NCBI RefSeq assembly: GCF_011045215.1
Contig: NZ_CP049201.1
Direction: 5' to 3' (one strand)
Origin: Escherichia coli
Lineage (GTDB): Bacteria; Pseudomonadota; Gammaproteobacteria; Enterobacterales; Enterobacteriaceae
DNA length: 64,000 nucleotides
Position numbers and translations under genes: made by a program. Shown one piece after another: positions 2,770-62,314 of this stretch (positions are counted from its first letter, which is position 1; every line of letters begins with the position of its first letter). The notes below the pieces were generated by a model. The model was not told the DNA's origin. It saw nothing but the letters and a program-made list of their open reading frames with translations, and did no database searches.

Positions 2770-3813
2770 ATGCGCTATCGCATTTTCCTTCTCTTTTTTT
2801 TCGCTTTGTTGCCGACGTCTTTGGTGTGGGCGGCACCAGCGCAACGGGCGTTTTCCGACTGGCAGGTCACCTGTAATAACCAAAACTTCTGCGTGGCGCG
2901 TAATACGGGCGATCATAATGGACTGGTGATGACCCTGAGCCGCAGCGCCGGGGCGCATACCGATGCCGTTTTACGTATTGAGCGCGGCGGGTTGAAGTCG
3001 CCGGATGCGTCTGAAGGGGAGATAGCGCCACGGCTGCTGTTAGATGGTGAGCCGTTGGCGTTAAGTGGTGACAAGTGGCGGATTTCACCATGGTTATTAG
3101 TAACCGATGATACGGCAACCATCACCGAGTTTTTGCAGATGATTCAGGAAGGGAAGGCGATCACCTTACGCGACGGCAATCAGACCATTTCTCTGAGTGG
3201 CTTAAAAGCGGCGTTGTTGTTTATTGATGCTCAGCAAAAGCGCGTTGGCAGTGAAACCGCCTGGATAAAGAAAGGGGACGAACCGCCGCTCAGCGTACCG
3301 CCAGCGCCTGCGTTGAAAGAGGTCGCGGTGGTTAACCCAACGCCGACGCCACTCTCACTCGAAGAACGTAACGATTTGCTGGATTATGGAAACTGGCGGA
3401 TGAATGGTCTGCGCTGCTCGCTTGATCCGTTACGTCGTGAGGTGAATGTCACTGCGCTGACTGATGATAAAGCGCTGATGATGATTAGCTGTGAGGCAGG
3501 GGCCTATAACACCATTGATTTGGCATGGATTGTGTCGCGTAAAAAGCCACTAGCCTCGCGCCCGGTTCGGTTGCGTTTGCCGTTCAACAACGGTCAGGAG
3601 ACGAATGAACTGGAACTGATGAACGCAACATTTGATGAGAAATCGCGTGAACTGGTGACCTTAGCGAAAGGGCGCGGATTAAGCGATTGTGGCATTCAGG
3701 CGCGCTGGCGCTTTGACGGTCAGCGTTTTCGCCTAGTGCGTTACGCCGCAGAACCGACCTGCGATAACTGGCATGGGCCAGATGCCTGGCCCACGTTGTG
3801 GATCACCCGTTAA
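2770..3813 (+). CDS. ypfG: Periplasmic protein YpfG (signal peptide, DUF-type)
   Basis: 347-aa ORF with N-terminal hydrophobic signal sequence; synteny between nudK and tktB. Confidence 0.7.
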   Translation: MRYRIFLLFFFALLPTSLVWAAPAQRAFSDWQVTCNNQNFCVARNTGDHNGLVMTLSRSAGAHTDAVLRIERGGLKSPDASEGEIAPRLLLDGEPLALSGDKWRISPWLLVTDDTATITEFLQMIQEGKAITLRDGNQTISLSGLKAALLFIDAQQKRVGSETAWIKKGDEPPLSVPPAPALKEVAVVNPTPTPLSLEERNDLLDYGNWRMNGLRCSLDPLRREVNVTALTDDKALMMISCEAGAYNTIDLAWIVSRKKPLASRPVRLRLPFNNGQETNELELMNATFDEKSRELVTLAKGRGLSDCGIQARWRFDGQRFRLVRYAAEPTCDNWHGPDAWPTLWITR

Positions 3814-3825
3814 ACAAAATAGCGG

Positions 3826-3905
3826 GACATGTAGGCCGGATAAGACGCTGTAGGCCGGATAAGACGCGTCAGCGTCGCATCCGGCAATCAGCGTCCGGCA
3901 ATCAG
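3826..3905. repeat. REP (repetitive extragenic palindromic) elements, at least two copies
   Basis: Repeated gtaggccggataagacgc units and gcatccggcaatcag units between convergent ypfG and tktB. Confidence 0.6.
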
Positions 3906-3921
3906 CATCTGCCGGTCAGTA

Positions 3922-5925
3922 TCAGGCATCTTTCACTCCCAGCACCTTATGCGCTTTTGCCACAATATTCTCGGCGGTAAAGCCAAAGAACGGGAACAGC
4001 TTATCCGCCGGAGCAGATTCCCCGTAACCCGTCATCCCGACAATTGCCCCTTTCAGACCAACATACTTGTACCAGTAATCGGCAATACCTGCTTCCACCG
4101 CCACGCGAGCCGCAACGTTAGAAGGCAACACCGACTCCCGATATTCCTCATCCTGGGCGTCGAAAATATCGGTCGAGGGCAGGGAAACTACGCGAACATT
4201 GCGACCTTCTCCCGCTAATTTCTCTGCCGCTTGCAGGGTGATTTCCATCTCTGAACCGGTGGCAATCAAAATAATATCTGGCTTACCGCCGCTGTCTTTC
4301 AGCACATAACCGCCACGAGCAATCTCTTTAACCTGATCCGGCGTACGTTCCACCTGGGCCAGATTCTGCCTGGAGAGAATCAGTGCCGTCGGTCCGTTGT
4401 GGCGCTCAACCGCCAGCTTCCAGCCCACCGCCGCTTCCACCTGATCGCACGGTCGCCAGGTGCTGAAATTTGGCGTTAAGCGCAGGCTGGCCAGTTGCTC
4501 AACAGCCTGGTGCGTCGGACCATCTTCGCCCAGGCCAATTGAGTCGTGGGTATAAACCATAATCTGCCGCGCTTTCATCAGTGCCGCCATCCGCGCGGCG
4601 TTACGGGCGTATTCAACAAACATCAGGAACGTCGCGGTATACGGCACAAAGCCACCGTGGTGCGCAATGCCATTGGCGATAGCGGTCATGCCAAATTCAC
4701 GCACCCCGTAGTGAATGTAGTTGCCCGCCGGATCTTCCTTCAGCGAAACAGAACCTTTCCAGATGGTCAGGTTGCTGGGAGCCAGATCCGCCGAACCGCC
4801 GAGCAGCTCCGGTAGTATCGGCCCGTAAGCGTTAAGCGTATTTTGCGAAGCCTTACGGGTAGCGATTTTCGCCGGATTCGCCTGCAACTCATTGATATAT
4901 TTCTGAGTCGTTTTCTCCCAGTCCTTCGGTAAACCACCGCTCATCCGACGGGTAAACTCTTCTGCCAGTTGCGGATGAGCCTTTTTATAGGCGGCAAACT
5001 TCTCATTCCAGCTCTGCTGCGCTTTTTCGCCTTTTTCGCGGGCATCCCAGGCGTGATAAATCTCTTTAGGGATCTCAAATGGCGGATGGTGCCAGCCCAG
5101 TTTTTGCCGTGCCAGCGCCACTTCTTCTTCCCCCAGCGGTGCGCCGTGCGCCTCTTCCTTACCTGCTTTATTCGGCGAACCAAAACCAATCACCGTACGG
5201 CAGATAATCAGCGACGGCTTATCTTTCACGCTTTGCGCTTCAAGGATCGCTTCCTTCACCGCCTGCGGATCGTGACCGTCGATTTCATGGATCACATGCC
5301 AGTGATAGGCTTCAAAACGTTTTGCCGTATCGTCGGTAAACCAGCCTTCGGTTTCTCCATCAATCGAAATACCGTTGTGATCGTAAAAACCAATCAGCTT
5401 GCCCAGTCCCAGCGTGCCCGCCAGCGAACAGACTTCGTGGGAAATACCTTCCATCAGGCAGCCGTCGCCCATAAACACATAGGTGAAGTGATCGACGATC
5501 TCATGGTCTGGCTGGTTAAACTGTGCAGCCAGCGTACGTTCCGCTATCGCCAGCCCGACGGCGTTCGCCAAACCTTGTCCAAGAGGACCGGTGGTGGTTT
5601 CAACTCCGGGCGTATAGCCGATTTCCGGGTGGCCAGGGGTTTTCGAATGCAGTTGACGAAAGTTCTTCAGCTCTTCCAGCGGCAGGTCGTAACCGGTCAG
5701 ATGCAGCAAACTGTAGAGCAGCATCGATGCGTGACCGTTGGAAAGAATAAAGCGGTCGCGATCATACCAGGTTGGGTCGGTAGGGTTATGTTTAAGAAAA
5801 TCGTTCCACAGCACTTCAGCAATATCAGCCATGCCCATCGGCGCGCCGGGATGACCAGAATTGGCTTTTTGTACCGCATCCATACTGAGTGCGCGAATCG
5901 CATTGGCAAGGTCTTTTCGGGACAT
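3922..5925 (-). CDS. tktB: Transketolase 2
   Basis: 667-aa product from ATG at 5925 ([14 protein letters not shown]...); TPP-binding transketolase motifs; co-located with talA as in the E. coli talA-tktB operon. Confidence 0.9.
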
Positions 5926-20079: not shown

Positions 20080-20172
20080 ATACTGTAGTTATCAGGCGTG
20101 GCGCTGGGTTGCGGGGTGTTAGTGGGATTATATCCGGCTGTGTATCCGGTCGGGGTGATTGGTCTGTATAGC

Positions 20173-20194
20173 AAAACCCGGCGCGGGGCCGGGT
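20173..20194 (-). terminator. Intrinsic terminator (minus-strand orientation)
   Basis: On minus strand reads ACCCGGCCCCGCGCCGGGTTTT: GC stem CCCGGC/GCCGGG followed by U-run, 7 nt after stop of the 20201-20761 gene; identical copy at 21822-21843. Confidence 0.6.
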
Positions 20195-20200
20195 GAACTA

Positions 20201-20761
20201 TCATTCAGGGAACAAGTTGATTTGAAGCAAACTGCCAATGTATTTACCAGTGCTTTTAATTTTTCGCTTTGATGGCTTACACGAATTCAGGTTGACACCA
20301 GCCTGGCTAGATATTGGCTTGTATTGCCGCTCCGCCAGTACGATCAGGTCTGCCGCGTCTTTTAGCTTTCCATCGTTAGCCAGTTCCAATGCTCGATCCG
20401 CCATTTGCCCGCATTGTTGAATCAGCTTAAGTTGCGATACCTCCAGTCGCAATTGCTGGATTCGTTCTACCACTTTCGCCCTAATGCGCTTAGTTTCACG
20501 CATTCCCATTCTTAATGCCTGGTTGCCAGTAAGTGAGTAAACCTCTTTTTCTTTCCTGAAGTTTGCGGCTTTACCGTCAGCTTGGACGCGCATTTTATGC
20601 GCTTCCAAGAATTCGCCCTCCAATTCATCCCTGATCTTCGCGTTGAATCTGTCGTTCTTGAGTTCATTTAACCCTTCCGCCTTGCGGATCTGGTTGATTA
20701 ACTCCAACAATTCATCACTGCGGATACGCCACTCGCTATCAACCTGTACCAAGTCAAACAT
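20201..20761 (-). CDS. Hypothetical phage protein (186 aa from ATG with GGGAG RBS; coiled-coil, possibly regulatory)
   Basis: ORF with good RBS upstream of internal ATG at 20761 (track start 20854 is TTG); no confidently recognised domain. Confidence 0.55.
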   Translation of the reverse strand: MFDLVQVDSEWRIRSDELLELINQIRKAEGLNELKNDRFNAKIRDELEGEFLEAHKMRVQADGKAANFRKEKEVYSLTGNQALRMGMRETKRIRAKVVERIQQLRLEVSQLKLIQQCGQMADRALELANDGKLKDAADLIVLAERQYKPISSQAGVNLNSCKPSKRKIKSTGKYIGSLLQINLFPE

Positions 20762-20924
20762 GTTGTTGCTCCCGTTTTGCTGCCATAGGGCAACGGCTCG
20801 CCAGCCTTTATCACCTCCTTTAGTTGTTGCGATTCTTAACTGAATGGTTATCAAAACGCTGCGTTAATATCATTGATATGTATCAAATTTGTTTTGTGAC
20901 GCGACAATGCCTTGTGAATATCAA

Positions 20925-20949
20925 TAAAAAACCCAGCGCTATGGCTGGG
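20925..20949 (-). terminator. Intrinsic terminator (minus-strand orientation)
   Basis: Minus strand CCCAGCcatagcGCTGGG followed by UUUUUU, 45 nt downstream of stop of 20995-21723 gene. Confidence 0.5.
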
Positions 20950-20994
20950 CTTCTCTTGATGGCTGGTTTTGTAGCTAATCGTTGGCTTTAAGGG

Positions 20995-21723
20995 TTAAGC
21001 AACAATATTAATCCCGCTCCTTGTCGCTGCCTCTTTGGCAATTTTCCCCTCGTCCTCCAGTTTAGCTAACGCCTTGTACATCCAGTGGCGGCCCGGTGCG
21101 CCATGCAGCTTGCCATCTTTGCCGATCTTACCGAACGCATGTAACGCCAAATCGTCGATAGTCCCCTTGTATCCGCCTTGCTCCTTAAGCCATTGCTCAA
21201 GCTGTTCTACTTTGAATTTTGCCGGACGTCCGCCAGCCGCTTTTTGTTGTTTAGCTGGTTCTTCTGCAATATCGCTTTTGTTGTTTAAGTCCGTCATGAC
21301 TGGTTCTCCTACAATAGCGTCGCCCTTGGTCTCGATTTGTTGATTAACTGGTTTGTCTACAATATCGATTTTGTTGTTTAGCTGGTTTTTCAACATATCA
21401 ATCTCAGCCTTTAGCGCCTCGTTTTCTCTGGCTAGTTCTTCGCAACGCTTGATAAATTTTTGTTCCATGCCGTCCGGGCTATCAACGTGCGCCGTACCCA
21501 TTACGATCTTCCCGTTGCTATCGAAGATGACAGCTTGCCAACCGACTGCGGCGAGCATTTTAAACACATCATCAGCGGTCTTGTTTGTTGTATCGCGACG
21601 CCCTTTAAACTTGTGGCTAGCAGCGCCTTTGCCTTTGAAGCCCATTGCCTCAGCGACATCTTGCCGCGTCATCTTGCGAGCGCGCTTGTTCATGCCTAAC
21701 TCAACCCAATCCATGTATTCCAT
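20995..21723 (-). CDS. Hypothetical phage protein with internal tandem peptide repeats (242 aa)
   Basis: ORF with GAGGT RBS; DNA and protein contain imperfect tandem repeats (LNNKIDIVDKPVNQQ / LNNKSDIAEEPAKQQ); basic N-terminal region possibly DNA-binding. Confidence 0.6.
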   Translation of the reverse strand: MEYMDWVELGMNKRARKMTRQDVAEAMGFKGKGAASHKFKGRRDTTNKTADDVFKMLAAVGWQAVIFDSNGKIVMGTAHVDSPDGMEQKFIKRCEELARENEALKAEIDMLKNQLNNKIDIVDKPVNQQIETKGDAIVGEPVMTDLNNKSDIAEEPAKQQKAAGGRPAKFKVEQLEQWLKEQGGYKGTIDDLALHAFGKIGKDGKLHGAPGRHWMYKALAKLEDEGKIAKEAATRSGINIVA

Positions 21724-21821
21724 ACATTACCTCATTTTGTCGCTAAACGTTTTGCTTTCTAATTTATCAACAAAAAAGCGGGTGATGGTAGCCGCTTTGA
21801 TGGGGAAGTTGACAGGGATCA

Positions 21822-21843
21822 AAAACCCGGCGCGGGGCCGGGT
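21822..21843 (-). terminator. Intrinsic terminator (minus-strand orientation), identical copy of 20173-20194
   Basis: Same 22-bp sequence aaaacccggcgcggggccgggt; 18 nt downstream of stop of AlpA-like gene 21861-22091. Confidence 0.6.
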
Positions 21844-21860
21844 ATTAGCAAGTTAGATGA

Positions 21861-22091
21861 TTACTGGGTATCGCTGTCAGAAAGTAGTCCAATTGATTTA
21901 AAGAATTTCATCACATCCTGATAGCGATACATGACGCCCCGCCCGGTTCCCAGCACATCAACAGGGTCGGGGAATGGAGTTCCGTTCTGTTCCCATTTCT
22001 TACGCCACGAATAAAACGTTCCCCTGCTAATTCCGCCCAGCATCCGGCAGATGGCAGGGCGGCTAAGAAGGATTACTTCATTTTTATCCAT
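21861..22091 (-). CDS. AlpA-family phage transcriptional regulator / excisionase-like HTH protein (76 aa)
   Basis: Motif LSRPAICRMLGGISRGTFYSWRKK...FPDPV typical of AlpA/Xis-type HTH; GGGAGA RBS. Confidence 0.6.
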   Translation of the reverse strand: MDKNEVILLSRPAICRMLGGISRGTFYSWRKKWEQNGTPFPDPVDVLGTGRGVMYRYQDVMKFFKSIGLLSDSDTQ

Positions 22092-22110
22092 TGTTTAATC
22101 TCCCGTGTGT

Positions 22111-22299
22111 TTATTTTGCGTAGATTAAGGCAAATGCTCTTTTGGCTTTGCTTAGTTCGTATTCGCGTTTTTCTATGATTGCCATCAGTTCTTGTGCGGT
22201 GGCTGGCACGCCCGCTCTTATCAGCGCAATCTTAGTATCCATAGCGCACACTCTTTCACGCACCATATCGAAGATAATTTCCGCTCTATCGTGTTTCAT
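22111..22299 (-). CDS. Small hypothetical protein (62 aa)
   Basis: ORF with strong GAGGTGA RBS 5 nt upstream of ATG; 19 bp upstream of AlpA-like gene, likely co-transcribed. Confidence 0.5.
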   Translation of the reverse strand: MKHDRAEIIFDMVRERVCAMDTKIALIRAGVPATAQELMAIIEKREYELSKAKRAFALIYAK

Positions 22300-22648
22300 G
22301 ATTTCACCTCATATTTGTTGCTAAACCTTGTAAACCCTTGTTTGACTACAAAATACACCTGGTTAAGCGACTGATAAAATGATTTAGGTCAATTTATTGG
22401 TTGATGATTTATGTCTGATTGGATTTGTCTACAAATGGCAGGTTAGTCAACAAATGATGAAACCAGGGAATGGCGGTTATAATGTCAGCGGGGATTGTGA
22501 GAAAGGCCCGGGTAGGTTGCTAACTGCCTGGGCCTTTATTTTTGGCGCGTGTACGTGAAATCTGGAAAATTTGCAGGGTAGTTGTTGAGGGATTTTTCGC
22601 GTAGGAGCGTGAAGGGTCCGCCAGTCATCGCCCTGACGTAGCGGTGAA

Positions 22649-23050
22649 TTACTTGCGAGGCTCACCCATCGGCCAGGCACCTTCATTGCGACGATAACCA
22701 ATCCGGTACTCTTCCGGCAGCGGCAAGCCCTGCTCACGATATGGACGCAGATCGAAGCCAAAAACAGGATCGTCGTCGTAGGCGAGGAATAGCCCGGCAG
22801 GCTCTGCCACGCGTTCGATAATCAGTTCCCCATCTTCAACGAAGAAGATCAGATTATCGCGAAAGTCCGTTACCTCACTGACGTGATAACATTCGGCATG
22901 TGCGTCCAGCCAGGCTTCTCGGTATTCCTGAATCTCGGCTTCTGACCATGTTGAAACAGGACGCTCCCAAATTCCCAGGCTGGATTTGCCCTGGCGGGAG
23001 AATAATTTTGCCTCTTTGCTCTGCTCTGGTTTTCTGTTTAAAAAGCTCAT
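22649..23050 (-). CDS. Hypothetical protein (133 aa)
   Basis: ORF with AAGGAGAA RBS; no recognised domain. Confidence 0.55.
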   Translation of the reverse strand: MSFLNRKPEQSKEAKLFSRQGKSSLGIWERPVSTWSEAEIQEYREAWLDAHAECYHVSEVTDFRDNLIFFVEDGELIIERVAEPAGLFLAYDDDPVFGFDLRPYREQGLPLPEEYRIGYRRNEGAWPMGEPRK

Positions 23051-23186
23051 TATTCTTCTCCTTTGAACGGATTGTTCTTGCTCTCTAATAACTTAGCGCG
23101 ACCCAGTAACGTCCGGGCAAGCGCCTCCGCCTTCCTTAGCCTAAGCCCTGCGTCTTCTGCGTCCAGATCTACATTCCTGATAGCCT

Positions 23187-23450
23187 CTACAGCCTGCTCC
23201 GCTGCGTCCGGGCGTGAATCCACTTAAATATGCCGATATGCTCACGAAAGTCTGGATGCTCATATTGCCAGCGGCAGATTGTTCTGAAGCTCGGCATGTC
23301 AGGCATGTTGCCAATCTCTCTGAGACTATGGCCTTCAGCTACCAGCAAGCAGATTTCTTCAGCGATAGCGACCCCATACTTAGCGCTTTTTCTGCTTAAA
23401 CTTGTGACATCAACAGGTAAGTTATTGATTTCTTTATCATCACCCTTCAT
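23187..23450 (-). CDS. Small HTH protein resembling the DNA-binding domain of phage terminase small subunits (87 aa)
   Basis: Motif AEGHSLREIGNMPDMPSFRTICRWQYEHPDFRE resembles TerS-type HTH; GGGGGTAA RBS; family assignment is from memory and tentative. Confidence 0.4.
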   Translation of the reverse strand: MKGDDKEINNLPVDVTSLSRKSAKYGVAIAEEICLLVAEGHSLREIGNMPDMPSFRTICRWQYEHPDFREHIGIFKWIHARTQRSRL

Positions 23451-23525
23451 AATTACCCCCGAATTGATAGCGAATTGATAGCGAATTACCCCGAATTACC
23501 CCCGAATTACCCCCGAATCACCATC
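23451..23525. repeat. Tandem array of about 6.5 copies of an 11-bp unit (AATTACCCC(C)G x4 and AATTGATAGCG x2)
   Basis: Directly visible: aattaccccc g aattgatagc g aattgatagc g aattacccc g aattaccccc g aattaccccc g aatcaccatc, exactly filling the gap between the 93-aa gene stop and the 87-aa gene start. Confidence 0.85.
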
Positions 23526-23527
23526 AT

Positions 23528-23809
23528 TTAACCCTCGCCTACGTCTGCGTCGATGCTTGCTAACTGGCTGTGTAGATCGCGTTCAATCATTTTTACCTTT
23601 TTCACAAAATCCCTTTCCTCGGCGGTGGCGGGCGCGCCCTGGGCTATGTTTTTCGTGAGGTCGTGGAAAGTGCCGAAAACATAAAGGGAGAACAGCCTTA
23701 ATTGTTGCCGCTTCATTGGCAAATCACTGTTGCTATGTTTGATCTCAGCGACGCCTTTCGAAATAACACGGGCCATCCCATGACAAATTCTTAACGTAAG
23801 CGCAGACAT
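23528..23809 (-). CDS. Hypothetical protein (93 aa)
   Basis: ORF with GGGGAG RBS; no recognised domain. Confidence 0.5.
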   Translation of the reverse strand: MSALTLRICHGMARVISKGVAEIKHSNSDLPMKRQQLRLFSLYVFGTFHDLTKNIAQGAPATAEERDFVKKVKMIERDLHSQLASIDADVGEG

Positions 23810-23930
23810 GATATTTACTCCCCGACTGGTATAATGAACGTGGTTTTAAACGTTGCTATTTGCTAACCATTTAATCTGTTAACTCAATTTCGCATTGTTG
23901 GCCCGGCACGAACACCGGGCTTTTCTTTAC

Positions 23931-24272
23931 CTATTCGAAATAGCTTCCAATATCCGGTGTCCGGGTATCAGTTTTCCGGGTCGGCTCGAAGTACGATTCC
24001 AGATCCGGCGTTTTCGGCCCACGCTGGGCGTTGGCGGCGGGTTGCTTTTCTTCTGGCTGTTCCGGCTGTTTACTACCAAATCGGCGCTCCAGTTGGTCCA
24101 TCAGCACTACCATCATTTCCTGGACCAGCTTTTCATCGGCTTTATCAAGGTTCTCCAATACCATCGCCATCCCTTTGCGGAATTTAAGCTCAGCGTCGTC
24201 CGGTTCCGGTGCTGATTCGTTTGCTTTAACTGCCAGGGCGATCCGGCGTTTTGCTTCATCCAAAAAATTCAT
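23931..24272 (-). CDS. Hypothetical acidic protein ending in repeated SYFE motif (113 aa)
   Basis: ORF with GGGGGAA RBS overlapping stop of upstream gene; C-terminus ...DLESYFEPTRKTDTRTPDIGSYFE. Confidence 0.5.
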   Translation of the reverse strand: MNFLDEAKRRIALAVKANESAPEPDDAELKFRKGMAMVLENLDKADEKLVQEMMVVLMDQLERRFGSKQPEQPEEKQPAANAQRGPKTPDLESYFEPTRKTDTRTPDIGSYFE

Positions 24273-24277
24273 TTTGT

Positions 24278-24721
24278 TTATTCCCCCATGTGGAAATAGT
24301 CATCTAAGCGGCGATTAAACTCGTCGCTGCCATCGAAATATTCACGGATACTTTTATTGACCAGATCATCACCGTCGAAATACTGGCGCGTGAAATCGTC
24401 CAATTCCCCATCGAAGTATTGACGTGTGAAATCGTCTAATTCCCCTTCAAAATATTGACGCGCATCAGGCGCTCTGTTTGGCGCTGTAGCAATCTCAGAT
24501 TGATTGCCCTGTAACTTATCGACGTTTGCTAAATACACGCCCAGTGAGCTGTTTGTTCCCATTACCGCAAGCATTTTCCGGCGATCTGCCATGTTCGGCG
24601 CGAGCGATGATAATTGAGCTTTAATTTTGTCCACTTCCTGATTAACAATACGGTCAATCAGTGGTTGATTCGTGCGAATAATTTCCTGTGCCAACTGGCG
24701 AATATATTCTTTGCGTGTCAT
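24278..24721 (-). CDS. Hypothetical protein with C-terminal tandem RQYF(D/E)GELDDFT repeats (147 aa)
   Basis: ORF with GGAGAT RBS; encoded by about 3.5 tandem 36-bp DNA repeats near 24330-24465. Confidence 0.55.
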   Translation of the reverse strand: MTRKEYIRQLAQEIIRTNQPLIDRIVNQEVDKIKAQLSSLAPNMADRRKMLAVMGTNSSLGVYLANVDKLQGNQSEIATAPNRAPDARQYFEGELDDFTRQYFDGELDDFTRQYFDGDDLVNKSIREYFDGSDEFNRRLDDYFHMGE

Positions 24722-24739
24722 TTCTTATCTCCGTTCATC

Positions 24740-25123
24740 TCATTTCTGTAAAAAACCCATACCGTGGCCCAGGCGATTTGAAATTTTCCCGGCAAGCATC
24801 CGGCGAATATGTTTTTCGTTGATGATGTCGTGAGTGACCGGATCTTCACCTTTCATACATTCCGGCATCTGGTCAAACAATACGGAAGCGCCTTCATCAA
24901 TAATCTCAGTTAAGACTGCTGGCAGCATATTAATGATGCGTTCTGCTTCGTCGTTCATTGCTTTATCGAACGCTTTTTTATCCATTGCTTCGGCGGATGG
25001 TTTGTAATTGTCGCCAGTCAGGTTAAGGTAAGTGTTGTTTGGGTGATACATGGCATTCACTCCTTTTACTTTGATTGTTGCGATTTCTTTGTTTTTGTTA
25101 ATTGTGGTGCCTTTGACTTTCAT
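24740..25123 (-). CDS. Hypothetical protein (127 aa)
   Basis: ATG overlaps stop of HNH gene (ATGA), suggesting translational coupling; no recognised domain. Confidence 0.5.
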   Translation of the reverse strand: MKVKGTTINKNKEIATIKVKGVNAMYHPNNTYLNLTGDNYKPSAEAMDKKAFDKAMNDEAERIINMLPAVLTEIIDEGASVLFDQMPECMKGEDPVTHDIINEKHIRRMLAGKISNRLGHGMGFLQK

Positions 25124-25539
25124 GCTGCTTCTTCCTTCAATAATTGTGGCAATTTGCCTGTTAGTTCGATTTCTTCATTAATAGATGCAAGTAACTGTCT
25201 CAGTTTGCGATGTAATAGCTGGTGACGCTCTCTCGGCATTTTTACCAGGTTGCTTAAGCGGTTATTCTGCGGATCGTAGTCCCGGTGATGGATATCATAT
25301 TTTCGCTCATCGTAAACACCGTAGCACCATAACCAGGCAGCCTTTTCTATTGTCATGCAGGTACGTTTTCCGTTGCTTAAACAAATGGTTATACTCAGGT
25401 GACCGCGATGTTTTTCGTTTAAGCTGCCTTTAATTACCTGGCCTGTGCTGCGGTTGTGAAATAAACCAGTTTCAGGGTCGTAGTGATATTTCTGTCGTAA
25501 TATATCAACTGATAACCGTAGTCTTGTAAGATTGTCCAT
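25120..25539 (-). CDS. HNH homing-type endonuclease (139 aa)
   Basis: Motif YDIHHRDYDPQNNRLSNLVKMPRERHQ (HH...N...N...H) typical of phage HNH nucleases; GAGGTAG RBS. Confidence 0.7.
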   Translation of the reverse strand: MDNLTRLRLSVDILRQKYHYDPETGLFHNRSTGQVIKGSLNEKHRGHLSITICLSNGKRTCMTIEKAAWLWCYGVYDERKYDIHHRDYDPQNNRLSNLVKMPRERHQLLHRKLRQLLASINEEIELTGKLPQLLKEEAA

Positions 25540-25571
25540 GATGTTCTACCTCAATGTGATTGCTGTGTTAA

Positions 25572-25757
25572 TTATCTTTCTTCTTGTGGCCTATTCAGCC
25601 AGGCCTCGATCTCGCTACGCCAGAATAATAAACGACAATTTCGCGGCGTAAATGGTTGGGGTATTGTCTTATCTTTTAATAGCCATCTTCGAATCGTTCT
25701 TGTTGATACCCCCGCTATTAATGCGAAAGCTCGCAGATCTATAACTTCATCTCTCAT
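25572..25757 (-). CDS. AlpA-like HTH regulator (61 aa from ATG with GAGGT RBS)
   Basis: Sequence LIAGVSTRTIRRWLLKDKTIPQPF...WRSEIEAWL matches AlpA/Xis-type HTH pattern; track ORF start 25862 is a TTG extension. Confidence 0.55.
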   Translation of the reverse strand: MRDEVIDLRAFALIAGVSTRTIRRWLLKDKTIPQPFTPRNCRLLFWRSEIEAWLNRPQEER

Positions 25758-26537
25758 GTTCTTACCTCGATTAAAAAGGACCGCCCCCAGGGAAAGAAGA
25801 AAGAGGAAAGAGGAAAGAGGAAAAACTTCCTGGAGGCGGGTAATTCGGATTCCTTGAATCAATATCCCATGTGATACTTAATATTATAAAGGGCGGCGGG
25901 CTATGTCGCTATTTTTGCCATAGTGTGACACCATTAATTTATTAACAAAAAGTGCTATTTATTAAATCTTTTTTCGGCAGGTGCAAGAAAAATAATTGCG
26001 ACACGGTAGGGTAGCGGGCGATAATAATCATGTAAGGAGTAGCCACCTTACGCCTCCAAATGTGATCGATAAAAATAATAGTCTCAATTCTTTCTCCCGC
26101 TTCTCGGCGGTTTTTTTGCCTGCAATCACACATCAAAAAAACACATCGAATTGATATGCCTTTAAAACGCAATATAACGCATTTTGACGGCCTTAATTTT
26201 TGCCTATCCACTCGGAAGCGTAAGCCTGTTTTGATTCGTCTGGCGTGGAATGGTGCGGCGGTAATATCAGATCTCAGCGTTCTGTGTGGTGGGATGGAAT
26301 AGCCTGGCAGGATCTGCGTGTGATTTCATTCATCCAACCTTGGATGAATGGTCCGATCTGGTCAGTAGTCCGGCACAAATAAAAAGCGCCTGCGGGCGTA
26401 GCAGACGCTTTGTGTACAGGCTTATCAGTACGGGATGTGCACGAATGATTATACCACCCTCAGAAAAACGTTTGCTTTTGCACTTAAACGGATAAGTGGT
26501 ATTTCTTGGTCTTCATTGGTTTTAGCTCACCATAGGC

Positions 26538-26765
26538 TCATTTAGGTGCGCCCCTGTCGATAATTCGGTACATGTTCTCGGTATATCTCCCGTTAATCAC
26601 CGTTCTGGTAACAACAATCACACCGTTTTCCTCCAGAAAGGCAATGGCCCGCTTCACTCCCTGGCGGCTTACACCGGATAGCTGCGCCAGCCTGTCAATG
26701 GAGATGTTGTATTTGTCCGGCTGGCTTGTCAGGATCTGGAATACCGCTCGTGCTGTTTTCGTCAT
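26538..26765 (-). CDS. Small winged-helix DNA-binding protein (75 aa), candidate regulator
   Basis: Sequence ISIDRLAQLSGVSRQGVKRAIAFLEENGVIV has HTH character; divergent from the plus-strand cassette; RBS weak. Confidence 0.45.
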   Translation of the reverse strand: MTKTARAVFQILTSQPDKYNISIDRLAQLSGVSRQGVKRAIAFLEENGVIVVTRTVINGRYTENMYRIIDRGAPK

Positions 26766-27037
26766 GGCAAAAACTCATTGAAATTGGATACCCTTAGAAC
26801 GCTCTCAAACGCTCCGTAATGCGATGAGAATTTTACCTAAGCAAGTGTAGCTCTTTATTAGTTTTATGATGCCGTAGGCCGATAGAAGGTGCGCTCTCTG
26901 AAGTTTCATTGTCTATCAGTGGTGGGTAATGCTGCCTTTACTATTGGCGTCAAGAAAATCACTGGTGTAGATTGGGCGAATAGTTTACTATTCAAACAAG
27001 GCACAATGGCCTTAGCGGATTGATGTCAGGAGATACC

Positions 27038-27385
27038 ATGTCAAAAATAGTTACTTTGTTTGCGACTAAGCGAGAAGGGAAATCCCTTTCTGTGCGCACT
27101 CGTAAGCCAAAAGCTATGACTGGCTTGCGTAAAACAAATCGTCTGACGCATCTTGACGCGTTAGCGTATCGACTAGGATACCAGTTGGTGCGCGGTAAAA
27201 GTGTCATGTTTCGCTACACTGCTACTCTCGATCACGAAGAAAACAAAGTGATGAATGCGGCCTCGCCTATGGCTGTACCACGAGTAAAAAAAATGACGTT
27301 CACACAAGCGTGTGATTTATCAAAAGATTTATTCGATTCACGAGAAGAACGCTTAAAGAGTGTAAGCTTTGATGGTCCAGAATGA
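27038..27385 (+). CDS. Basic 115-aa protein, candidate partner (antitoxin or regulator) of downstream YafO-like gene
   Basis: ATG at 27038 preceded by AGGAGA RBS; stop overlaps start of next gene by 14 nt; basic N-terminus and acidic C-terminus; no recognised family. Confidence 0.5.
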   Translation: MSKIVTLFATKREGKSLSVRTRKPKAMTGLRKTNRLTHLDALAYRLGYQLVRGKSVMFRYTATLDHEENKVMNAASPMAVPRVKKMTFTQACDLSKDLFDSREERLKSVSFDGPE

Positions 27386-27887
27386 ATTTATTGGTAAGGT
27401 CTACAGTGATAACAAGTTTAAAACAAACGATGAATTAAAGAGCTTTAAGGATTCGTTTATTTATCATTGGAGATATGGACATCATCCTGATTTTGGAAAG
27501 GATACTCTTTTCCATAAACCCCCGTGTGTATATCCTATCCATTTACGTAAAGTCCATGTAAATATTGGTCTTTATACCAATCAGTACGGCTATAGCGGGA
27601 CAGAACAATGCTGGGATGACTGGTCTACTGGTCGTTATGGTCCCGGTGGTTTCGAAAAAGTTACCCCTACATCTGATGCTTATCTTATATACGCTGTATG
27701 TAAAAATAGAAATGCTGGCGTGTTAGACTTCTGGTTTCCTCCCGCACACAAAAACGCTGAGTTCGAATCCTCTGTACAGTTTGTGGCTGAGATGGCTGAT
27801 AAGTTTTATGAGTCTATCAAGGCGGACCCGATGCCGCGCGATCAGAATCCTTGGCATACGGGGTATATAGTTAAAAAACCAGCCTGA
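27372..27887 (+). CDS. YafO-family toxin-like protein (171 aa)
   Basis: Motifs F-I-Y-H-W-R-Y-G...PDFGKDTLF, YPIHLRKVHVN and SDAYLIYAV line up with recalled YafO motifs (FISYKRDG...PDIFGRDALY, ERVAHIHLAN, DEAHLVYCQG); similarity judged from memory, not computed. Confidence 0.45.
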   Translation: MVQNEFIGKVYSDNKFKTNDELKSFKDSFIYHWRYGHHPDFGKDTLFHKPPCVYPIHLRKVHVNIGLYTNQYGYSGTEQCWDDWSTGRYGPGGFEKVTPTSDAYLIYAVCKNRNAGVLDFWFPPAHKNAEFESSVQFVAEMADKFYESIKADPMPRDQNPWHTGYIVKKPA

Positions 27888-28438
27888 TCCACGCAATACT
27901 GATTGTTTTTGGCCTTGTATGGTGTGGTCTGATTTGAGGCAAAATTATTTAATCCCTTAAAAAACTAACTTCAAAAGACTAAAACCAGGGGGATGGTCCC
28001 TCTCGCTCCGCTCCAGGTACCATCCCTGTCGGGATGGGTTTATTGTAGAGTTAAAATTAATTACTCACATCGTCACACCTTGCGAAAGTTTTGCTCAATT
28101 ATCATTCAAACATAGCACAAAAAATATTCGATTTAGTTAGTGTGCACTGACTTTTTTATCAATTTACTTTCATTCGAAAGTCATGGGTTAAATATTAATC
28201 ATCTGGCTGTGGCACGCATGGATTCACCGAGGGTATTTTGGACCATTTGGTCAAAATTCATAAGTACATGATTTCATGGTGATTTATTTTTCTGTATCTT
28301 GCTTTCATTCGAAAGTGGAAACGAAGAATTGGCAATTTATTGATTCAGATCATTGACATTGCATATTTGTGGCGGTTGTCACGGTTGTTTTTTGAGCGCT
28401 TCAACCGTCGATATTGAGTATAAACCCGGCCTTATAGT

Positions 28439-29644
28439 TCACGGTTCAAGTGGATTACCGTCACCAGCCAATATTGAATCAATAGCGTCGGCGTAATCCT
28501 GCATCATTGCTCGCCGTTGCTTCAGGTAGGCCGCCTGGTTATAAACGCCGCGCACACCTTTCGGGACGTGGGCCAATTGGATTTCGATCCAGTCTGGTGA
28601 GTATCTGCCAGACTCATTAAGCGCCGTTGAAAAGGTGGTCCGCCAGCCATGACCAGTGGCAATGGATTTATAGCCGATCCTCTCAAGCGCCTTCAGTATC
28701 GCGCTGGCTGAAAGTGGCTTATCCATGAATCGACCAGGGAAGACGAAAGCACTGTATCCGCTCCTTGTAAACTGGTCCTGTAATAGCTCCACCGCCTGCC
28801 GTGATAGCGGGACCACATGCGGGCGGCGGGCCTTCATGACTTCAGCGGGCAATGTGATTGTTGCGTCCTCCAGGTTTATCCATTCCCAACGGCACAAACG
28901 CAGTTCTGCGGTCCTTAATGCCGTTAATATAAGCAAACGTATTGCCGTCTGAATCTGGACGCTCCCGGCCCTCTCAAGGGCTTTGTAGAAGGCCGGAATT
29001 TCACTAATCGGTATCCACGCGTTGTGACCAGGTCGGCGGGCCTTCAGTGCCGTATCAAGATCTGCAACCGGATTCCTCGTTACCAGTTCGGTGATAACGG
29101 CAAACTTGAAGATCTCACCGATGCGCTGGCGTAGCTTGCGGGCCTGCTCCGGTGCGGTACGTTCTTTCTTCTGGAGTAATGCCAGCACGTCACGGGCGGT
29201 TATATCGACAATCGACCGCTTGCCAAGTACCGGATAGACGTCTTTTTCTAGGGCCGATCTGACCTGTTTTGCATAGGATTCCGACCACCCTCCAACCCTA
29301 GTAGCAAACCAGTCTTCCGCCACCTTCTTAAATCCTGCCGCCATGTTGAGCGCATCAATGGCTTTTTCCTTGCGGGCTTGTTCCACTGGGTTAATTCCAT
29401 TGGCAATAAGGGATCTGCTCTCCGTGGCGCGCCTGCGTGCTTCTTTGAGTGTGATTAGCGGGTAAACACCAATAGCCTGCAAAAACTCTCGTTTATTCAA
29501 CCAATACCTGAATCGCCAGTATTTCGAACCGTTGGGATGCACCAGCAAAAACAGCCCCGGCGTCAGTGAATCGGTGAGTTTATAGGGCTTGTCCTGCGGC
29601 TGTGCGGCGTCTATGGCCTTTGCTGTGAGTGGTGTCTTGCTCAA
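28439..29644 (-). CDS. intZ: Tyrosine-type site-specific integrase (prophage integrase)
   Basis: 401-aa ORF with phage integrase features (N-terminal arm-binding domain, C-terminal catalytic region with ...HGWRTT...); sits at the element end beside eutB as intZ does in E. coli K-12; start appears to be TTG. Confidence 0.8.
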   Translation of the reverse strand: MSKTPLTAKAIDAAQPQDKPYKLTDSLTPGLFLLVHPNGSKYWRFRYWLNKREFLQAIGVYPLITLKEARRRATESRSLIANGINPVEQARKEKAIDALNMAAGFKKVAEDWFATRVGGWSESYAKQVRSALEKDVYPVLGKRSIVDITARDVLALLQKKERTAPEQARKLRQRIGEIFKFAVITELVTRNPVADLDTALKARRPGHNAWIPISEIPAFYKALERAGSVQIQTAIRLLILTALRTAELRLCRWEWINLEDATITLPAEVMKARRPHVVPLSRQAVELLQDQFTRSGYSAFVFPGRFMDKPLSASAILKALERIGYKSIATGHGWRTTFSTALNESGRYSPDWIEIQLAHVPKGVRGVYNQAAYLKQRRAMMQDYADAIDSILAGDGNPLEP

Positions 29645-29832
29645 AACCGGATACCTTGATTTAACGACTGGATAACCCCGATCATGTATCCGGCGCGTTC
29701 GGTTGCGTTCGGCAGGATAAGTAACGGGCGTATTAAGTGGAACACCTTACAGGACAAGGGCTAACGATGAAATAGAATTGTTTGCAGGCTGTGAGAAATG
29801 TTAATCGTCACTTCTTCCTGAGGGAACGACTT

Positions 29833-61914: not shown

Positions 61915-61990
61915 TGGTGGGTCGTGCAGGATTCGAACCTGCGACCAATTGATTAAAAGTCAACTGCTCTACCAACTGAGCTAACGACCC
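61915..61990 (-). tRNA. lysV: tRNA-Lys (anticodon UUU)
   Basis: Reverse complement gives GGGTCGTTAGCTCAGTTGGTAGAGCAGTTGACTTTTAATCAATTGGTCGCAGGTTCGAATCCTGCACGACCCACCA, 76 nt with CCA; last gene of val-val-val-lys tRNA operon. Confidence 0.9.
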
Positions 61991-61994
61991 GAAG

Positions 61995-62070
61995 TGGTGG
62001 GTGATGACGGGATCGAACCGCCGACCCCCTCCTTGTAAGGGAGGTGCTCTCCCAGCTGAGCTAATCACCC
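61995..62070 (-). tRNA. valY: tRNA-Val (anticodon UAC)
   Basis: Reverse complement gives GGGTGATTAGCTCAGCTGGGAGAGCACCTCCCTTACAAGGAGGGGGTCGGCGGTTCGATCCCGTCATCACCCACCA; third of three identical copies in transcription order. Confidence 0.85.
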
Positions 62071-62116
62071 ACTTCGGTATTTCACATTTTTACAAGAAAT
62101 TTAGCTGGTGAGAAAG

Positions 62117-62192
62117 TGGTGGGTGATGACGGGATCGAACCGCCGACCCCCTCCTTGTAAGGGAGGTGCTCTCCCAGCTGAGCTAATCACCC
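62117..62192 (-). tRNA. valX: tRNA-Val (anticodon UAC)
   Basis: Identical 76-nt tRNA-Val sequence; middle copy. Confidence 0.85.
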
Positions 62193-62238
62193 ACTTCGGT
62201 ATTTCACATTTTTACAAGAAATTTAGCTGGTGAGAAAG

Positions 62239-62314
62239 TGGTGGGTGATGACGGGATCGAACCGCCGACCCCCTCCTTGTAAGGGAGGTGCTCTCCCAGC
62301 TGAGCTAATCACCC
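62239..62314 (-). tRNA. valU: tRNA-Val (anticodon UAC)
   Basis: Identical 76-nt tRNA-Val sequence; promoter-proximal copy, divergent from gltX. Confidence 0.85.

What the first reader, a model, noticed from the sequence alone, without database searches (positions are those of the whole stretch)
24300..24465. Shared acidic YF motif tails on two adjacent proteins, built from 36-bp tandem DNA repeats
The 147-aa protein ends with repeated RQYF(D/E)GELDDFT units encoded by about 3.5 tandem 36-bp DNA repeats, and the adjacent 113-aa protein ends with two SYFE motifs. Repeated short acidic-aromatic C-terminal motifs are typical of tails that dock onto a partner protein, as with the SSB C-terminal tip. 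Two neighbouring genes carrying the same motif suggests they compete for or jointly bind one target.
Basis: seen in the sequence. Interest (0 to 1): 0.5.

Follow-up and report, generated by a model that had tools for sequence, protein, structure and literature searches.

The report
Conserved Tyr-Phe docking tails, satellite-like island
Two neighbouring small proteins of unknown family, in a decayed E. coli island that looks like a phage satellite, end in acidic tails carrying a strongly conserved Tyr-Phe motif (five and two copies); the tails look like multivalent docking peptides, but their binding partner is still unknown.

Summary
The 147-aa protein (B, 24278-24721, minus strand) carries five YF units. 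Only two of them form a recognisable 36-bp DNA repeat. The 113-aa protein (C, 23931-24272) carries two TPD-x-x-SYF(D/E) units, and the second is its C-terminus.

All 126 distinct B homologues have 4 or 5 units, and all 131 distinct C homologues have exactly 2. In a divergent lineage B's N-terminal domain is about 32% identical, while the part of the tail that BLASTP aligns is about 80% identical, with mostly synonymous codon changes. Unrelated proteins in the same slot of sister islands also carry 1-4 YF units.

B and C belong to a fixed three-gene operon (A-B-C). It sits in a CPZ-55-type island between eutA and eutB. Intact relatives of this island carry an integrase, a small-terminase-like gene and their own tape measure, but no capsid genes, so the island is probably an undescribed phage satellite.

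No known family matches A, B or C. The tails are acidic and modelled at low confidence. The most likely reading is multivalent docking motifs for one conserved partner. The island's HNH protein is not that partner. A fused-trio AlphaFold model gave no confident complex. Interest is moderate.

The parts
24278..24721 (-). Gene B: 147-aa ORFan protein with a helical N-terminal part (aa 1-~72), a variable linker and an acidic YF tail (aa 88-147)
   Evidence: ORF. 339 homologues, nearly all named ones E. coli. Only 3 real clusters among 1.84e9 representative proteins. No Pfam, PHROG, PADLOC or NCBIfam family. AlphaFold model all-helical with mean pLDDT 58.
24281..24460 (-). Five YF units of B, with periods of 12, 12, 14 and 14 residues plus a terminal half-unit
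   Evidence: Consensus is [RD][EQD]-Y-F-[DGE]-[GEM]. 110 of 126 distinct homologues have 5 units and 16 have 4. The internal units are amphipathic as alpha-helices (hydrophobic moment 0.58-0.59; only 2.5-3.4% of 2000 shuffles reach it).
24389..24460 (-). The only true 36-bp tandem DNA repeat (units 1 and 2). It accounts for the 4-versus-5 unit copy-number variation.
   Evidence: TRF reports 24375-24462, 2.4 copies. Units share 31/36 bases, and 4 of the 5 differences are synonymous. Homologues of 135 aa and 139/140 aa lack exactly one unit in two different linker backgrounds.
23931..24272 (-). Gene C: 113-aa ORFan protein with a helical N-terminal part, a Q/E/P-rich linker and two YF units
   Evidence: All 131 distinct homologues have exactly two YF.
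23985..24014 (-). C unit 1: KTPDLESYFE
   Evidence: Consensus is [TI]-P-D-[ILF]-x-S-Y-F-[SDEN].
23934..23963 (-). C unit 2: RTPDIGSYFE, the C-terminus of the protein
24740..25051 (-). Gene A: 103-aa ORFan protein, first gene of the A-B-C operon. It has a conserved basic C-terminal helix and an N-terminal [ST]-Y-[LF]-[ND] motif.
   Evidence: The ORF runs up to 25123, but nearly all of the 117 homologues are 98-109 aa, and AAGGAG lies 8 nt before the ATG at 25051. A is adjacent to B in all 17 trio-bearing sequences examined (16 loci plus the window). pLDDT is 63-81 over aa 21-100 in the fused model.
23900..23921 (.). GC-rich hairpin directly after the stop codon of C, a possible end or stabiliser of the trio transcript
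   Evidence: The T-run lies on the + strand only, so a terminator function on the minus strand is not shown.
25120..25539 (-). HNH endonuclease gene upstream of the trio. It is an optional neighbour, not an obligate partner.
   Evidence: Pfam HNH_3 at 5.4e-07. Absent from several trio-bearing islands.
25572..25757 (-). Small HTH regulator heading the operon
   Evidence: HTH_17 at 7e-4, below Pfam's cut-off. The homologue in L005 carries PF12728.
23528..23809 (-). YffM-like 93-aa gene downstream of the trio
   Evidence: Its C-terminus resembles K-12 YffM on reading the sequences; no formal alignment was run.
23050..23450 (-). Small-terminase-like gene (YffO-like), inactivated here by a 1-bp deletion near 23209
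   Evidence: Sf6_terminase PF20901 at 2e-11 and phrog_1482 at 8e-12. Alignment to the intact L003 gene shows the deletion.
28439..29644 (-). IntZ-type tyrosine integrase at the eutB edge of the island
   Evidence: Pfam Phage_int_M, Arm-DNA-bind_3 and Phage_integrase. Same eutA/eutB site as K-12 CPZ-55.

Best explanation
Proposal: the YF units are selected short linear motifs, not a recent slippage product. B and C are the second and third genes of a tightly packed three-gene set (A-B-C). The set sits in a CPZ-55-type island, and intact relatives of that island look like a phage satellite.

Architecture. B and C each have a small helical N-terminal part, a variable linker and an acidic, poorly ordered tail. 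The tail displays a Tyr-Phe pair five times in B and twice in C.

Mechanism (inferred). The tails act as multivalent, avidity-based docking elements for one conserved and probably oligomeric partner, while the helical parts hold or oligomerise the proteins. The most likely partner class is a helper-phage virion-assembly or packaging protein, such as capsid/scaffold or terminase. This would parallel satellite proteins like SaPI1 CpmB, which use a C-terminal helix-and-hook to dock on the helper's capsid protein. The island's own HNH protein is not the partner.

Shown: motif reality, motif conservation, selection on the tail, operon structure and island context.
Inferred: docking itself, multivalency as the point of the repeats, and the class of partner.
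For: 1. Motif invariance. Y and F are near-invariant over 62 (B) and 32 (C) distinct unit contexts while flanking residues vary. There are 4-5 units in all 126 B sequences and exactly 2 in all 131 C sequences.
2. Selection on the tail. Against the divergent orthologue P0123/L006, the whole protein is 40% identical by BLASTP. By my count from that alignment, the N-terminal part is about 32% identical and the aligned part of the tail about 80%. In the 47 tail codons compared there are 17 synonymous and 8 non-synonymous differences; in 43 N-terminal codons there are 6 and 27. The constraint is therefore on the peptide, not on the DNA.
3. Recurrence in other proteins. L016 has a 127-aa protein with 3 units and a 91-aa protein ending ...NDYF. 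L021 has a 146-aa protein with 4 units. All sit in the same slot after an A-family gene. The B profile did not detect these proteins.
4. Tail properties. Net charge is -12 over 62 residues. pLDDT is 53-61 for B alone and 27-40 in the fusion. B's internal units are amphipathic helices capped by Gly.
5. Operon. The genes are 18 and 5 nt apart, each preceded by a Shine-Dalgarno sequence. The trio is contiguous in every trio-bearing locus examined, across three integration sites.
6. Island context. Intact relatives carry an integrase, HTH regulators, a TerS-like gene, an HK97 gp10/Neck1-like gene and a 729-aa tape measure (phrog_1538, 4e-96). They have no recognisable capsid, portal, large terminase, tail tube, lysis or replication genes. 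The trio lies just upstream of the TerS-like gene. I recall SaPI capsid-remodelling and packaging-interference genes lying next to terS; that is my own knowledge and was not checked here.
7. Precedent. CpmB is a 72-residue helical dimer whose C-terminal 16 residues dock on the helper's capsid protein by copying the helper scaffold's C-terminus (PMC5644958).
Against: - No partner was identified and no helper phage is known.
- The island's TerS-like and tape-measure proteins are only about 30% identical to any phage protein in the collection.
- The AlphaFold model of the fused trio gave no confident complex, with mean pLDDT 45. It rested on only 12 closely related sequences.
- B's internal units are helical, whereas C's units are flanked by prolines and not amphipathic. 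They may therefore not bind the same site.
- The last three codons of B (ATG GGG GAA) overlap a purine-rich, Shine-Dalgarno-like stretch ahead of C. If that stretch is C's ribosome-binding site, part of the conservation at the extreme C-terminus may be nucleotide-level.
- The satellite status of the island is itself inferred. The window's copy is decayed.
Confidence: 0.45

Rival explanations
1. Intra-module assembly. The YF units dock on the co-encoded A protein, for example on its conserved basic C-terminal helix. B would then gather up to five A subunits and C two, forming an A-B-C complex whose activity resides in A.
For: An A-family gene directly precedes a YF protein in almost every island examined, including variants where B is replaced by an unrelated YF protein (L016). 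In L021 a single 81-aa gene lies between them. The C-terminus of A ([LF]AGK[IV][AS]N[KR][LI]G...L.K) is the most conserved part of A and is basic, complementary to the acidic tails.
Against: The fused-trio AlphaFold model left the tails at pLDDT 27-40. Two types of A that are 40% identical occur with the same B tail (L010 and L012 versus the window), which gives no covariation signal. A itself carries an N-terminal [ST]-Y-[LF]-[ND] motif, which fits all three proteins being ligands of something else.
Confidence: 0.2
2. The tail of B is an autonomously folding helical-repeat domain. The YF pairs form its hydrophobic core and are conserved for folding, not for docking.
For: The period is regular (12-14 residues). 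Each unit is predicted as a short helix ending in a conserved Gly. The units are amphipathic.
Against: pLDDT is low (53-61 alone, 27-40 in the fusion). Loss of a whole unit is tolerated in two backgrounds. C and the L016/L021 proteins carry one to four isolated, proline-flanked units that cannot form such a domain. Net charge is -12.
Confidence: 0.12
3. The acidic tails act as a polyanionic decoy or DNA mimic. They would block a DNA-binding protein such as a helper small terminase, a nuclease or a host restriction or defence protein, as phage proteins like Ocr or Gam do.
For: Acidic residues are dense (19 D/E in 62 residues). The neighbouring genes are TerS-like and HNH. The trio occupies a slot whose content varies between islands.
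Against: What is invariant is the aromatic pair, not the spacing of the charges. C's tail is only mildly acidic and rich in Pro, Thr and Lys. There is no match to PADLOC or to any known mimic.
Confidence: 0.1
4. The tails are SSB-tip-like and plug into the host proteins that read the SSB C-terminus.
For: The composition is acidic plus aromatic.
Against: The SSB tip requires a terminal ...D-I-P-F-COOH (own knowledge). Here the termini are ...YFHMGE and ...SYF(D/E), and five of the seven units are internal.
Confidence: 0.03
5. The repeats are a neutral, recent slippage product without function.
For: Units 1 and 2 are still a recognisable 36-bp DNA repeat, and copy number varies between 4 and 5.
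Against: Units 3-5 are diverged at the DNA level but keep the motif. The motif is retained across lineages with mostly synonymous change. No variant lacks the motif among the 126 B-family or 131 C-family sequences.
Confidence: 0.02

Closest known systems
SaPI1 CpmB, the alternative internal scaffold of a staphylococcal phage satellite (PMC5644958)
   Same: Both are small helical proteins encoded by a satellite-type island; I recall cpmB lying close to terS in SaPI1, but that was not checked here. Both have an N-terminal helical part plus a C-terminal docking peptide, and the docking motif is shared with a second protein. In CpmB's case the second protein is the helper's scaffold and the motif is RIIK.
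   Different: There is no sequence or fold similarity. CpmB has one basic/hydrophobic helix-and-hook, not 2-5 acidic Tyr-Phe units. Here the motif is shared between two island proteins. Neither a helper phage nor capsid binding is known.
SSB C-terminal tip and similar acidic-aromatic tails (T7 gp2.5 and gp4) - own knowledge
   Same: An acidic, disordered tail with an aromatic anchor, used to dock on partner proteins.
   Different: The SSB tip is a single unit that needs the free carboxylate of the terminal Phe. Here the units are mostly internal and repeated, and the proteins end in D/E or ...HMGE. Neither protein has an OB fold or any DNA-binding domain.
Cell-wall / choline-binding repeats (Pfam CW_binding_1, core YYFDxxG) - own knowledge
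   Same: Tandem repeats with an aromatic pair followed by Asp and Gly.
   Different: Pfam gives no hit. The period is 12-14 residues rather than about 20. The units are predicted helical rather than beta-hairpin. I saw no obvious signal peptide on reading the sequences; no predictor was run.
E. coli K-12 cryptic prophage CPZ-55 (intZ, yffL-yffS)
   Same: Same eutA/eutB insertion site and IntZ-type integrase. YffM-, YffO- (TerS-like) and YffP-like genes are shared.
   Different: In the corresponding slot K-12 has YffN (122 aa, no YF motif) instead of the A-B-C trio, and it lacks the tape measure. The trio is absent from K-12.

Membership tests
SSB-Ct-type docking tip | An acidic stretch ending in a hydrophobic tripeptide with a C-terminal Phe carboxylate (...DDDIPF-COOH) | tested here: not met
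   B ends ...DDYFHMGE. C ends ...SYFE, or ...SYFD/N in homologues. Only the unrelated 91-aa protein of L016 ends in ...DYF.
Bacterial beta-clamp-binding motif | QL[SD]LF or QLxLxL (own knowledge) | tested here: not met
   The units read RQYFDG or xSYF[DE]. There is no hydrophobic residue at motif positions 4-5, and C has no Gln.
Cell-wall binding repeat (CW_binding_1) | Repeats of about 20 residues matching the Pfam model, in a secreted protein | tested here: not met
   No Pfam hit at E <= 0.1. The period is 12-14 residues. The units are modelled as helices.
Satellite alternative scaffold (CpmB-like) | Small helical protein encoded next to terS in a satellite | tested here: met
   The models are all-helical. 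The trio lies one to two genes upstream of the TerS-like gene in every island. That cpmB lies near terS in SaPI1 is recalled from my own knowledge.
Satellite alternative scaffold (CpmB-like) | C-terminal peptide homologous to the helper scaffold's capsid-binding end; binds the helper capsid protein and changes capsid size | not testable with these tools
   The helper phage is unknown. tblastn of B, its tail and A against 50,697 phage records found nothing.
Tail assembly chaperone (lambda gpG/gpGT type) | Located directly upstream of the tape-measure gene, with a programmed -1 frameshift giving two products that share an N-terminus | tested here: not met
   Three to five genes separate the trio from the tape measure. 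B and C share a C-terminal motif, not an N-terminus.
Gram-negative PICI (for the island) | Integrase, AlpA-type regulator and a primase-replicase module in an island of about 10-15 kb (own knowledge) | tested here: not met
   The integrase and small HTH regulators are present and relatives are about 11-13 kb. No primase or replicase domain was found in any island protein scanned.
Known anti-phage defence systems (PADLOC) | Match to a PADLOC model | tested here: not met
   No hit for A, B or C.

The most novel reading that the evidence does not exclude
A-B-C would be the helper-hijacking module of an undescribed family of E. coli phage satellites. This CPZ-55-type family has an integrase, a TerS-like gene and its own tape measure and neck protein, but no capsid genes. 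In this reading the strings of Tyr-Phe units act as a multivalent alternative scaffold or adaptor. They would cross-link subunits of a helper capsid, portal or terminase ring and so redirect assembly or packaging towards the ~12-kb island. That would be a new motif class for molecular piracy.
Probability: 0.2. Interest if true: 0.75.

Novelty: new variant of a known kind. Interest (0 to 1): 0.45.

Why it matters
CPZ-55 is one of the K-12 cryptic prophages and none of its genes has a known function. The evidence here suggests its intact relatives form a coherent ~12-kb element that carries its own tape measure and a TerS-like gene. If so, this would be a satellite type not covered by the current classes (P4-like, PICI, cfPICI, PLE).

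The YF tails are the most sharply constrained feature of the element's ORFan genes. They are also small enough to use as synthetic peptides. That makes them a direct experimental handle for fishing out the helper or host protein the element exploits.

Multivalent linear motifs are well studied in eukaryotic viruses. As far as I know they are rarely documented in phage-satellite conflicts.

Tried and rejected
- Family searches. Pfam, PHROGs, PADLOC and NCBIfam gave nothing significant for A, B, C or the variant YF proteins. The weak hits were GAPES3, CIS13 and GamL, at E = 0.006-0.03. All lie far below the curated cut-offs, so I rejected them.
- Exhaustive profile search of B against 1.84e9 representative proteins. 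It found only its own tiny family plus frameshifted fragments, and one spurious repeat protein, P0128.
- Phage and viral collections. tblastn of B, the B tail and A against 50,697 phage records found nothing. A scan of IMG/VR with the B alignment found nothing.
- Species representatives. A scan of GTDB species-representative genomes with the A alignment found nothing.
- Solved structures, by sequence. The PDB search gave nothing significant. I inspected 'Protein delta' 5w82 and an ECF anti-sigma-like hit (E about 0.2) and rejected both.
- Structure prediction. AlphaFold on B alone gave mean pLDDT 58. AlphaFold on a linker-fused A-B-C trio with a 12-row paired alignment gave mean pLDDT 45, with tails at 27-40. 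There was no sign of an intra-trio complex.
- Fold search. Foldseek against BFVD and PDB gave no match with E < 0.1.
- Helper identification. The tape measure and the TerS-like protein are at best about 30-43% identical to proteins of scattered phages of Aeromonas, Cronobacter, Bordetella and Pseudomonas. This was not informative.
- Literature. I found no paper on CPZ-55 as a satellite or on a function for yffO or yffP. The Tai tail-assembly-inhibition paper was read and is unrelated.
- Considered and rejected on the motif pattern alone: EF-hand or DxDxDG calcium loops, the ClpX IGF loop, OMP-like YxF-COOH PDZ ligands, and the eukaryotic PIP box. The PIP-box core [ILM]xx[FY][FY] is matched only by the two C units, and the target does not exist in bacteria.

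Full report
**1. What is in the sequence**

Both ORFs exist as described. The 147-aa ORF (B) lies at 24278-24721 and the 113-aa ORF (C) at 23931-24272. Both are on the minus strand and are 5 nt apart.

B ends in five Tyr-Phe units:
- RQYFEGELDDFT
- RQYFDGELDDFT
- RQYFDGDDLVNKSI
- REYFDGSDEFNRRL
- DDYFHMGE

Together they span 24281-24460. The 62-residue tail has net charge -12.

C ends ...KTPDLESYFEPTRKTDTRTPDIGSYFE.

Tandem Repeats Finder gives 2.4 copies of a 36-bp unit at 82% match, and the repeat finder gives two copies at 81%. Units 1 and 2 share 31 of 36 bases, and four of the five differences are synonymous. Units 3 and 4 share only 17-20 of 36 bases with the other units. So one recent duplication sits on top of an older repeat that is now visible only in the protein.

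The motif density is far above chance. YF occurs 7.4e-4 per residue in the window's long ORFs. That gives P = 1e-9 for five in 62 residues and 1.4e-4 for two in 24.

**2. Conservation**

B has 339 homologues, and nearly all that carry a source name are from E. coli. C has 260. The upstream gene has 117.

An exhaustive HMMER profile search of 1.84 billion representative proteins found only three real clusters for B. The family is therefore tiny.

Among 126 distinct B sequences, 110 have five units and 16 have four. Y and F are invariant apart from two single substitutions. The consensus is [RD][EQD]-Y-F-[DGE]-[GEM].

The four-unit forms lack exactly one 12-residue unit. They occur in two different linker backgrounds (135 aa and 139/140 aa). 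The 36-bp repeat has therefore contracted more than once. No six-unit form was seen.

All 131 distinct C sequences have exactly two units. The consensus is [TI]-P-D-[ILF]-x-S-Y-F-[SDEN], and the second unit is always the C-terminus.

B's first unit (AP[DN]xR[QED]YF) has the same P-[DN]-x-x-x-Y-F frame as C's units. B's other units share only the YF plus acidic core.

**3. Selection**

A divergent lineage was recovered from assembled sequencing runs (P0123; L005-L007). It keeps all three genes.
- The upstream protein is 40% identical to the window's.
- C is 68% identical, with both units intact.
- B is 40% identical overall.

Counting from the BLASTP alignment, B's N-terminal part is about 32% identical and the aligned part of the tail about 80%.

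In the 47 tail codons compared there are 17 synonymous and 8 non-synonymous differences. In 43 N-terminal codons there are 6 and 27. The constraint is on the tail peptide, not on the DNA.

Neither is met.

**4. The gene neighbourhood**

B and C are the second and third genes of a fixed trio.

The first gene (A) most probably starts at 25051 and encodes 103 aa. It has an AAGGAG Shine-Dalgarno sequence, and nearly all its homologues are 98-109 aa. The longer 127-aa ORF is unlikely to be the real product.

The three genes are 18 and 5 nt apart, each preceded by a ribosome-binding site. The last codons of B (ATG GGG GAA) overlap a purine-rich, Shine-Dalgarno-like stretch just upstream of C's start. 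This may contribute to the invariance of the terminal MGE.

The trio is contiguous in every trio-bearing locus examined: 16 loci plus the window. These cover three insertion sites: eutA/eutB, near rssA, and within yghO.

It occurs once per genome, in 36 of 5,426 complete E. coli genomes. It is absent from the species representatives of GTDB.

The HNH gene at 25120-25539 is missing from many trio-bearing islands, so it cannot be an obligate partner.

**5. The island**

The window's island runs from about 20100 to 29700, between eutA and eutB. It carries an IntZ-type integrase. This is the site of the K-12 cryptic prophage CPZ-55.

Intact relatives are about 11-13 kb. In order they encode:
- an integrase
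- often a YafO-type toxin pair
- HTH regulators
- sometimes HNH
- A-B-C
- a YffM-like protein
- a small-terminase-like protein (YffO-like; Sf6_terminase domain)
- a YffP-like or 133-aa protein
- sometimes an HK97 gp10/Neck1-like protein
- a 729-aa tape measure (phrog_1538, E = 4e-96)
- a few small proteins and a coiled-coil HTH protein

I found no capsid, portal, large terminase, tail tube, lysis or replication genes. Nothing similar is present in 50,697 phage records or in IMG/VR. The picture is that of a phage satellite rather than a random prophage remnant, but this is an inference.

The window's copy is decayed. A 1-bp deletion near 23209 splits the TerS-like gene. About 2.5 kb, including the tape measure, is missing near 22617-22626.

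**6. The motif recurs in other proteins of the same slot**

In island L016 the A-family gene is followed by a 127-aa protein with three units (KTPGLDYFDQ, FGNYFSG, QRDYFTV). Further on there is a 91-aa helical protein ending ...PSWNDYF.

In L021 an 81-aa gene and then a 146-aa relative of that 127-aa protein follow the A gene. The 146-aa protein has four units.

The B profile did not detect these proteins, yet they display the same motif on the same kind of architecture: a helical head and a low-complexity tail. K-12 has YffN, which lacks the motif, in this slot.

A also carries a conserved N-terminal [ST]-Y-[LF]-[ND] (100 of 117 sequences). That segment is modelled at low confidence.

**7. 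Structure**

AlphaFold models B as all-helical with mean pLDDT 58. The tail forms short helices (residues 97-104, 109-116, 119-130, 133-144) at pLDDT 53-61.

B's internal units have a helical hydrophobic moment of 0.58-0.59; only 2.5-3.4% of 2000 shuffles of each unit reach that value. C's proline-flanked units are not amphipathic.

I fused A, B and C with Gly-Ser linkers and supplied a 12-row alignment paired by genome. The model had mean pLDDT 45. The tails scored 27-40, and only A was moderately confident at 63-81. This test therefore gives no support for an intra-trio complex. The alignment is shallow and the tool reports no inter-domain error, so the result is inconclusive rather than negative.

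Foldseek against viral models and the PDB, and sequence searches of the PDB, found nothing.

**8. Interpretation**

The pattern is what is expected of short linear docking motifs displayed multivalently:
- an invariant aromatic pair in variable acidic surroundings
- purifying selection on the tail but not on the head
- low-confidence structure
- copy number tolerated at 4-5
- recurrence in unrelated neighbours

The SSB tip is a poor model: the termini are wrong and most units are internal. HNH is not the partner.

The best functional analogy I can cite is SaPI1 CpmB. It is a 72-residue helical dimer whose C-terminal helix-and-hook copies the helper scaffold's end and docks on the capsid protein (PMC5644958). 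From my own knowledge, SaPI capsid-remodelling and packaging-interference genes lie next to terS; this was not checked here. The trio's position just upstream of the TerS-like gene resembles that arrangement.

I commit to the following reading, at about 0.45: multivalent docking on a conserved oligomeric partner, most likely a helper virion-assembly or packaging protein.

Rivals:

| Rival | Confidence |
|---|---|
| Docking on the co-encoded A protein | 0.2 |
| An autonomous helical-repeat domain | 0.12 |
| An acidic decoy or DNA mimic | 0.1 |
| SSB-tip mimicry | 0.03 |
| Neutral slippage | 0.02 |

**9. Novelty and score**

The mechanism class is known. The proteins, the motif and the element are not described in any library or paper I could search. 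I rate it a new variant of a known kind, with interest 0.45.

The more novel possibility is that the trio is the piracy module of a new E. coli satellite family that brings its own tape measure. I give this about 0.2 probability, and it would deserve about 0.75 interest if true.

Noticed in passing
window 20100-29700; relatives L002, L003, L009, L013 and others: The CPZ-55-type island family looks like an undescribed phage satellite. Intact copies are ~11-13 kb with an integrase, HTH regulators, a TerS-like gene, sometimes an HK97 gp10/Neck1-like gene, and a genuine 729-aa tape measure (phrog_1538, 4e-96). They have no recognisable capsid, portal, TerL, tube, lysis or replicase genes. They sit at three or more chromosomal sites with at least two different integrases, and are absent from the phage collections.
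   Followed up: partly
window 23050-23450 and ~22617-22626: The window's copy of the island is decaying. A 1-bp deletion near 23209 splits the TerS-like gene into 87-aa and 57-aa ORFs. About 2.5 kb containing the tape-measure gene is missing relative to L003 (positions 3092-5582). The A-B-C trio remains intact.
   Followed up: yes
window 23451-23522: An array of 11-bp tandem repeats (CGAATTGATAG about 2.5 times, then CGAATTACCCC about 3.8 times) lies directly upstream of the TerS-like start codon. Copy number differs among L003, L012, L018 and the window. It could be a protein-binding array, for example a packaging or regulatory site.
   Followed up: partly
L016 4771-5271 (E. coli F2_407_2_2): One sister island carries a cyclophilin-type peptidyl-prolyl isomerase gene among the YF-tail genes. 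This is notable because the extended YF units have conserved prolines (TPD..YF).
   Followed up: no
window 24740-25051 (protein A, residues 5-11): The first protein of the trio has its own conserved N-terminal [ST]-Y-[LF]-[ND] motif (NNTYLNL here, NTYFD in L016). It sits in a segment modelled at low confidence. All three trio proteins may therefore carry a related aromatic motif.
   Followed up: partly
window 24273-24290: The last codons of B (ATG GGG GAA TAA) overlap a purine-rich, Shine-Dalgarno-like stretch ahead of C, whose start codon lies 5 nt after B's stop. This suggests translational coupling and may explain the invariant terminal MGE.
   Followed up: partly
window 27020-27887: A plus-strand gene pair inside the island. 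The second gene is YafO-toxin-like (Pfam E = 2.6e-4, below the cut-off; annotated as a YafO family toxin in relatives). It is probably a toxin-antitoxin addiction module.
   Followed up: no
window 61915-62314: A tRNA array of three tRNA-Val(UAC) genes and one tRNA-Lys(UUU). It shows up as a perfect 122-bp tandem repeat.
   Followed up: no
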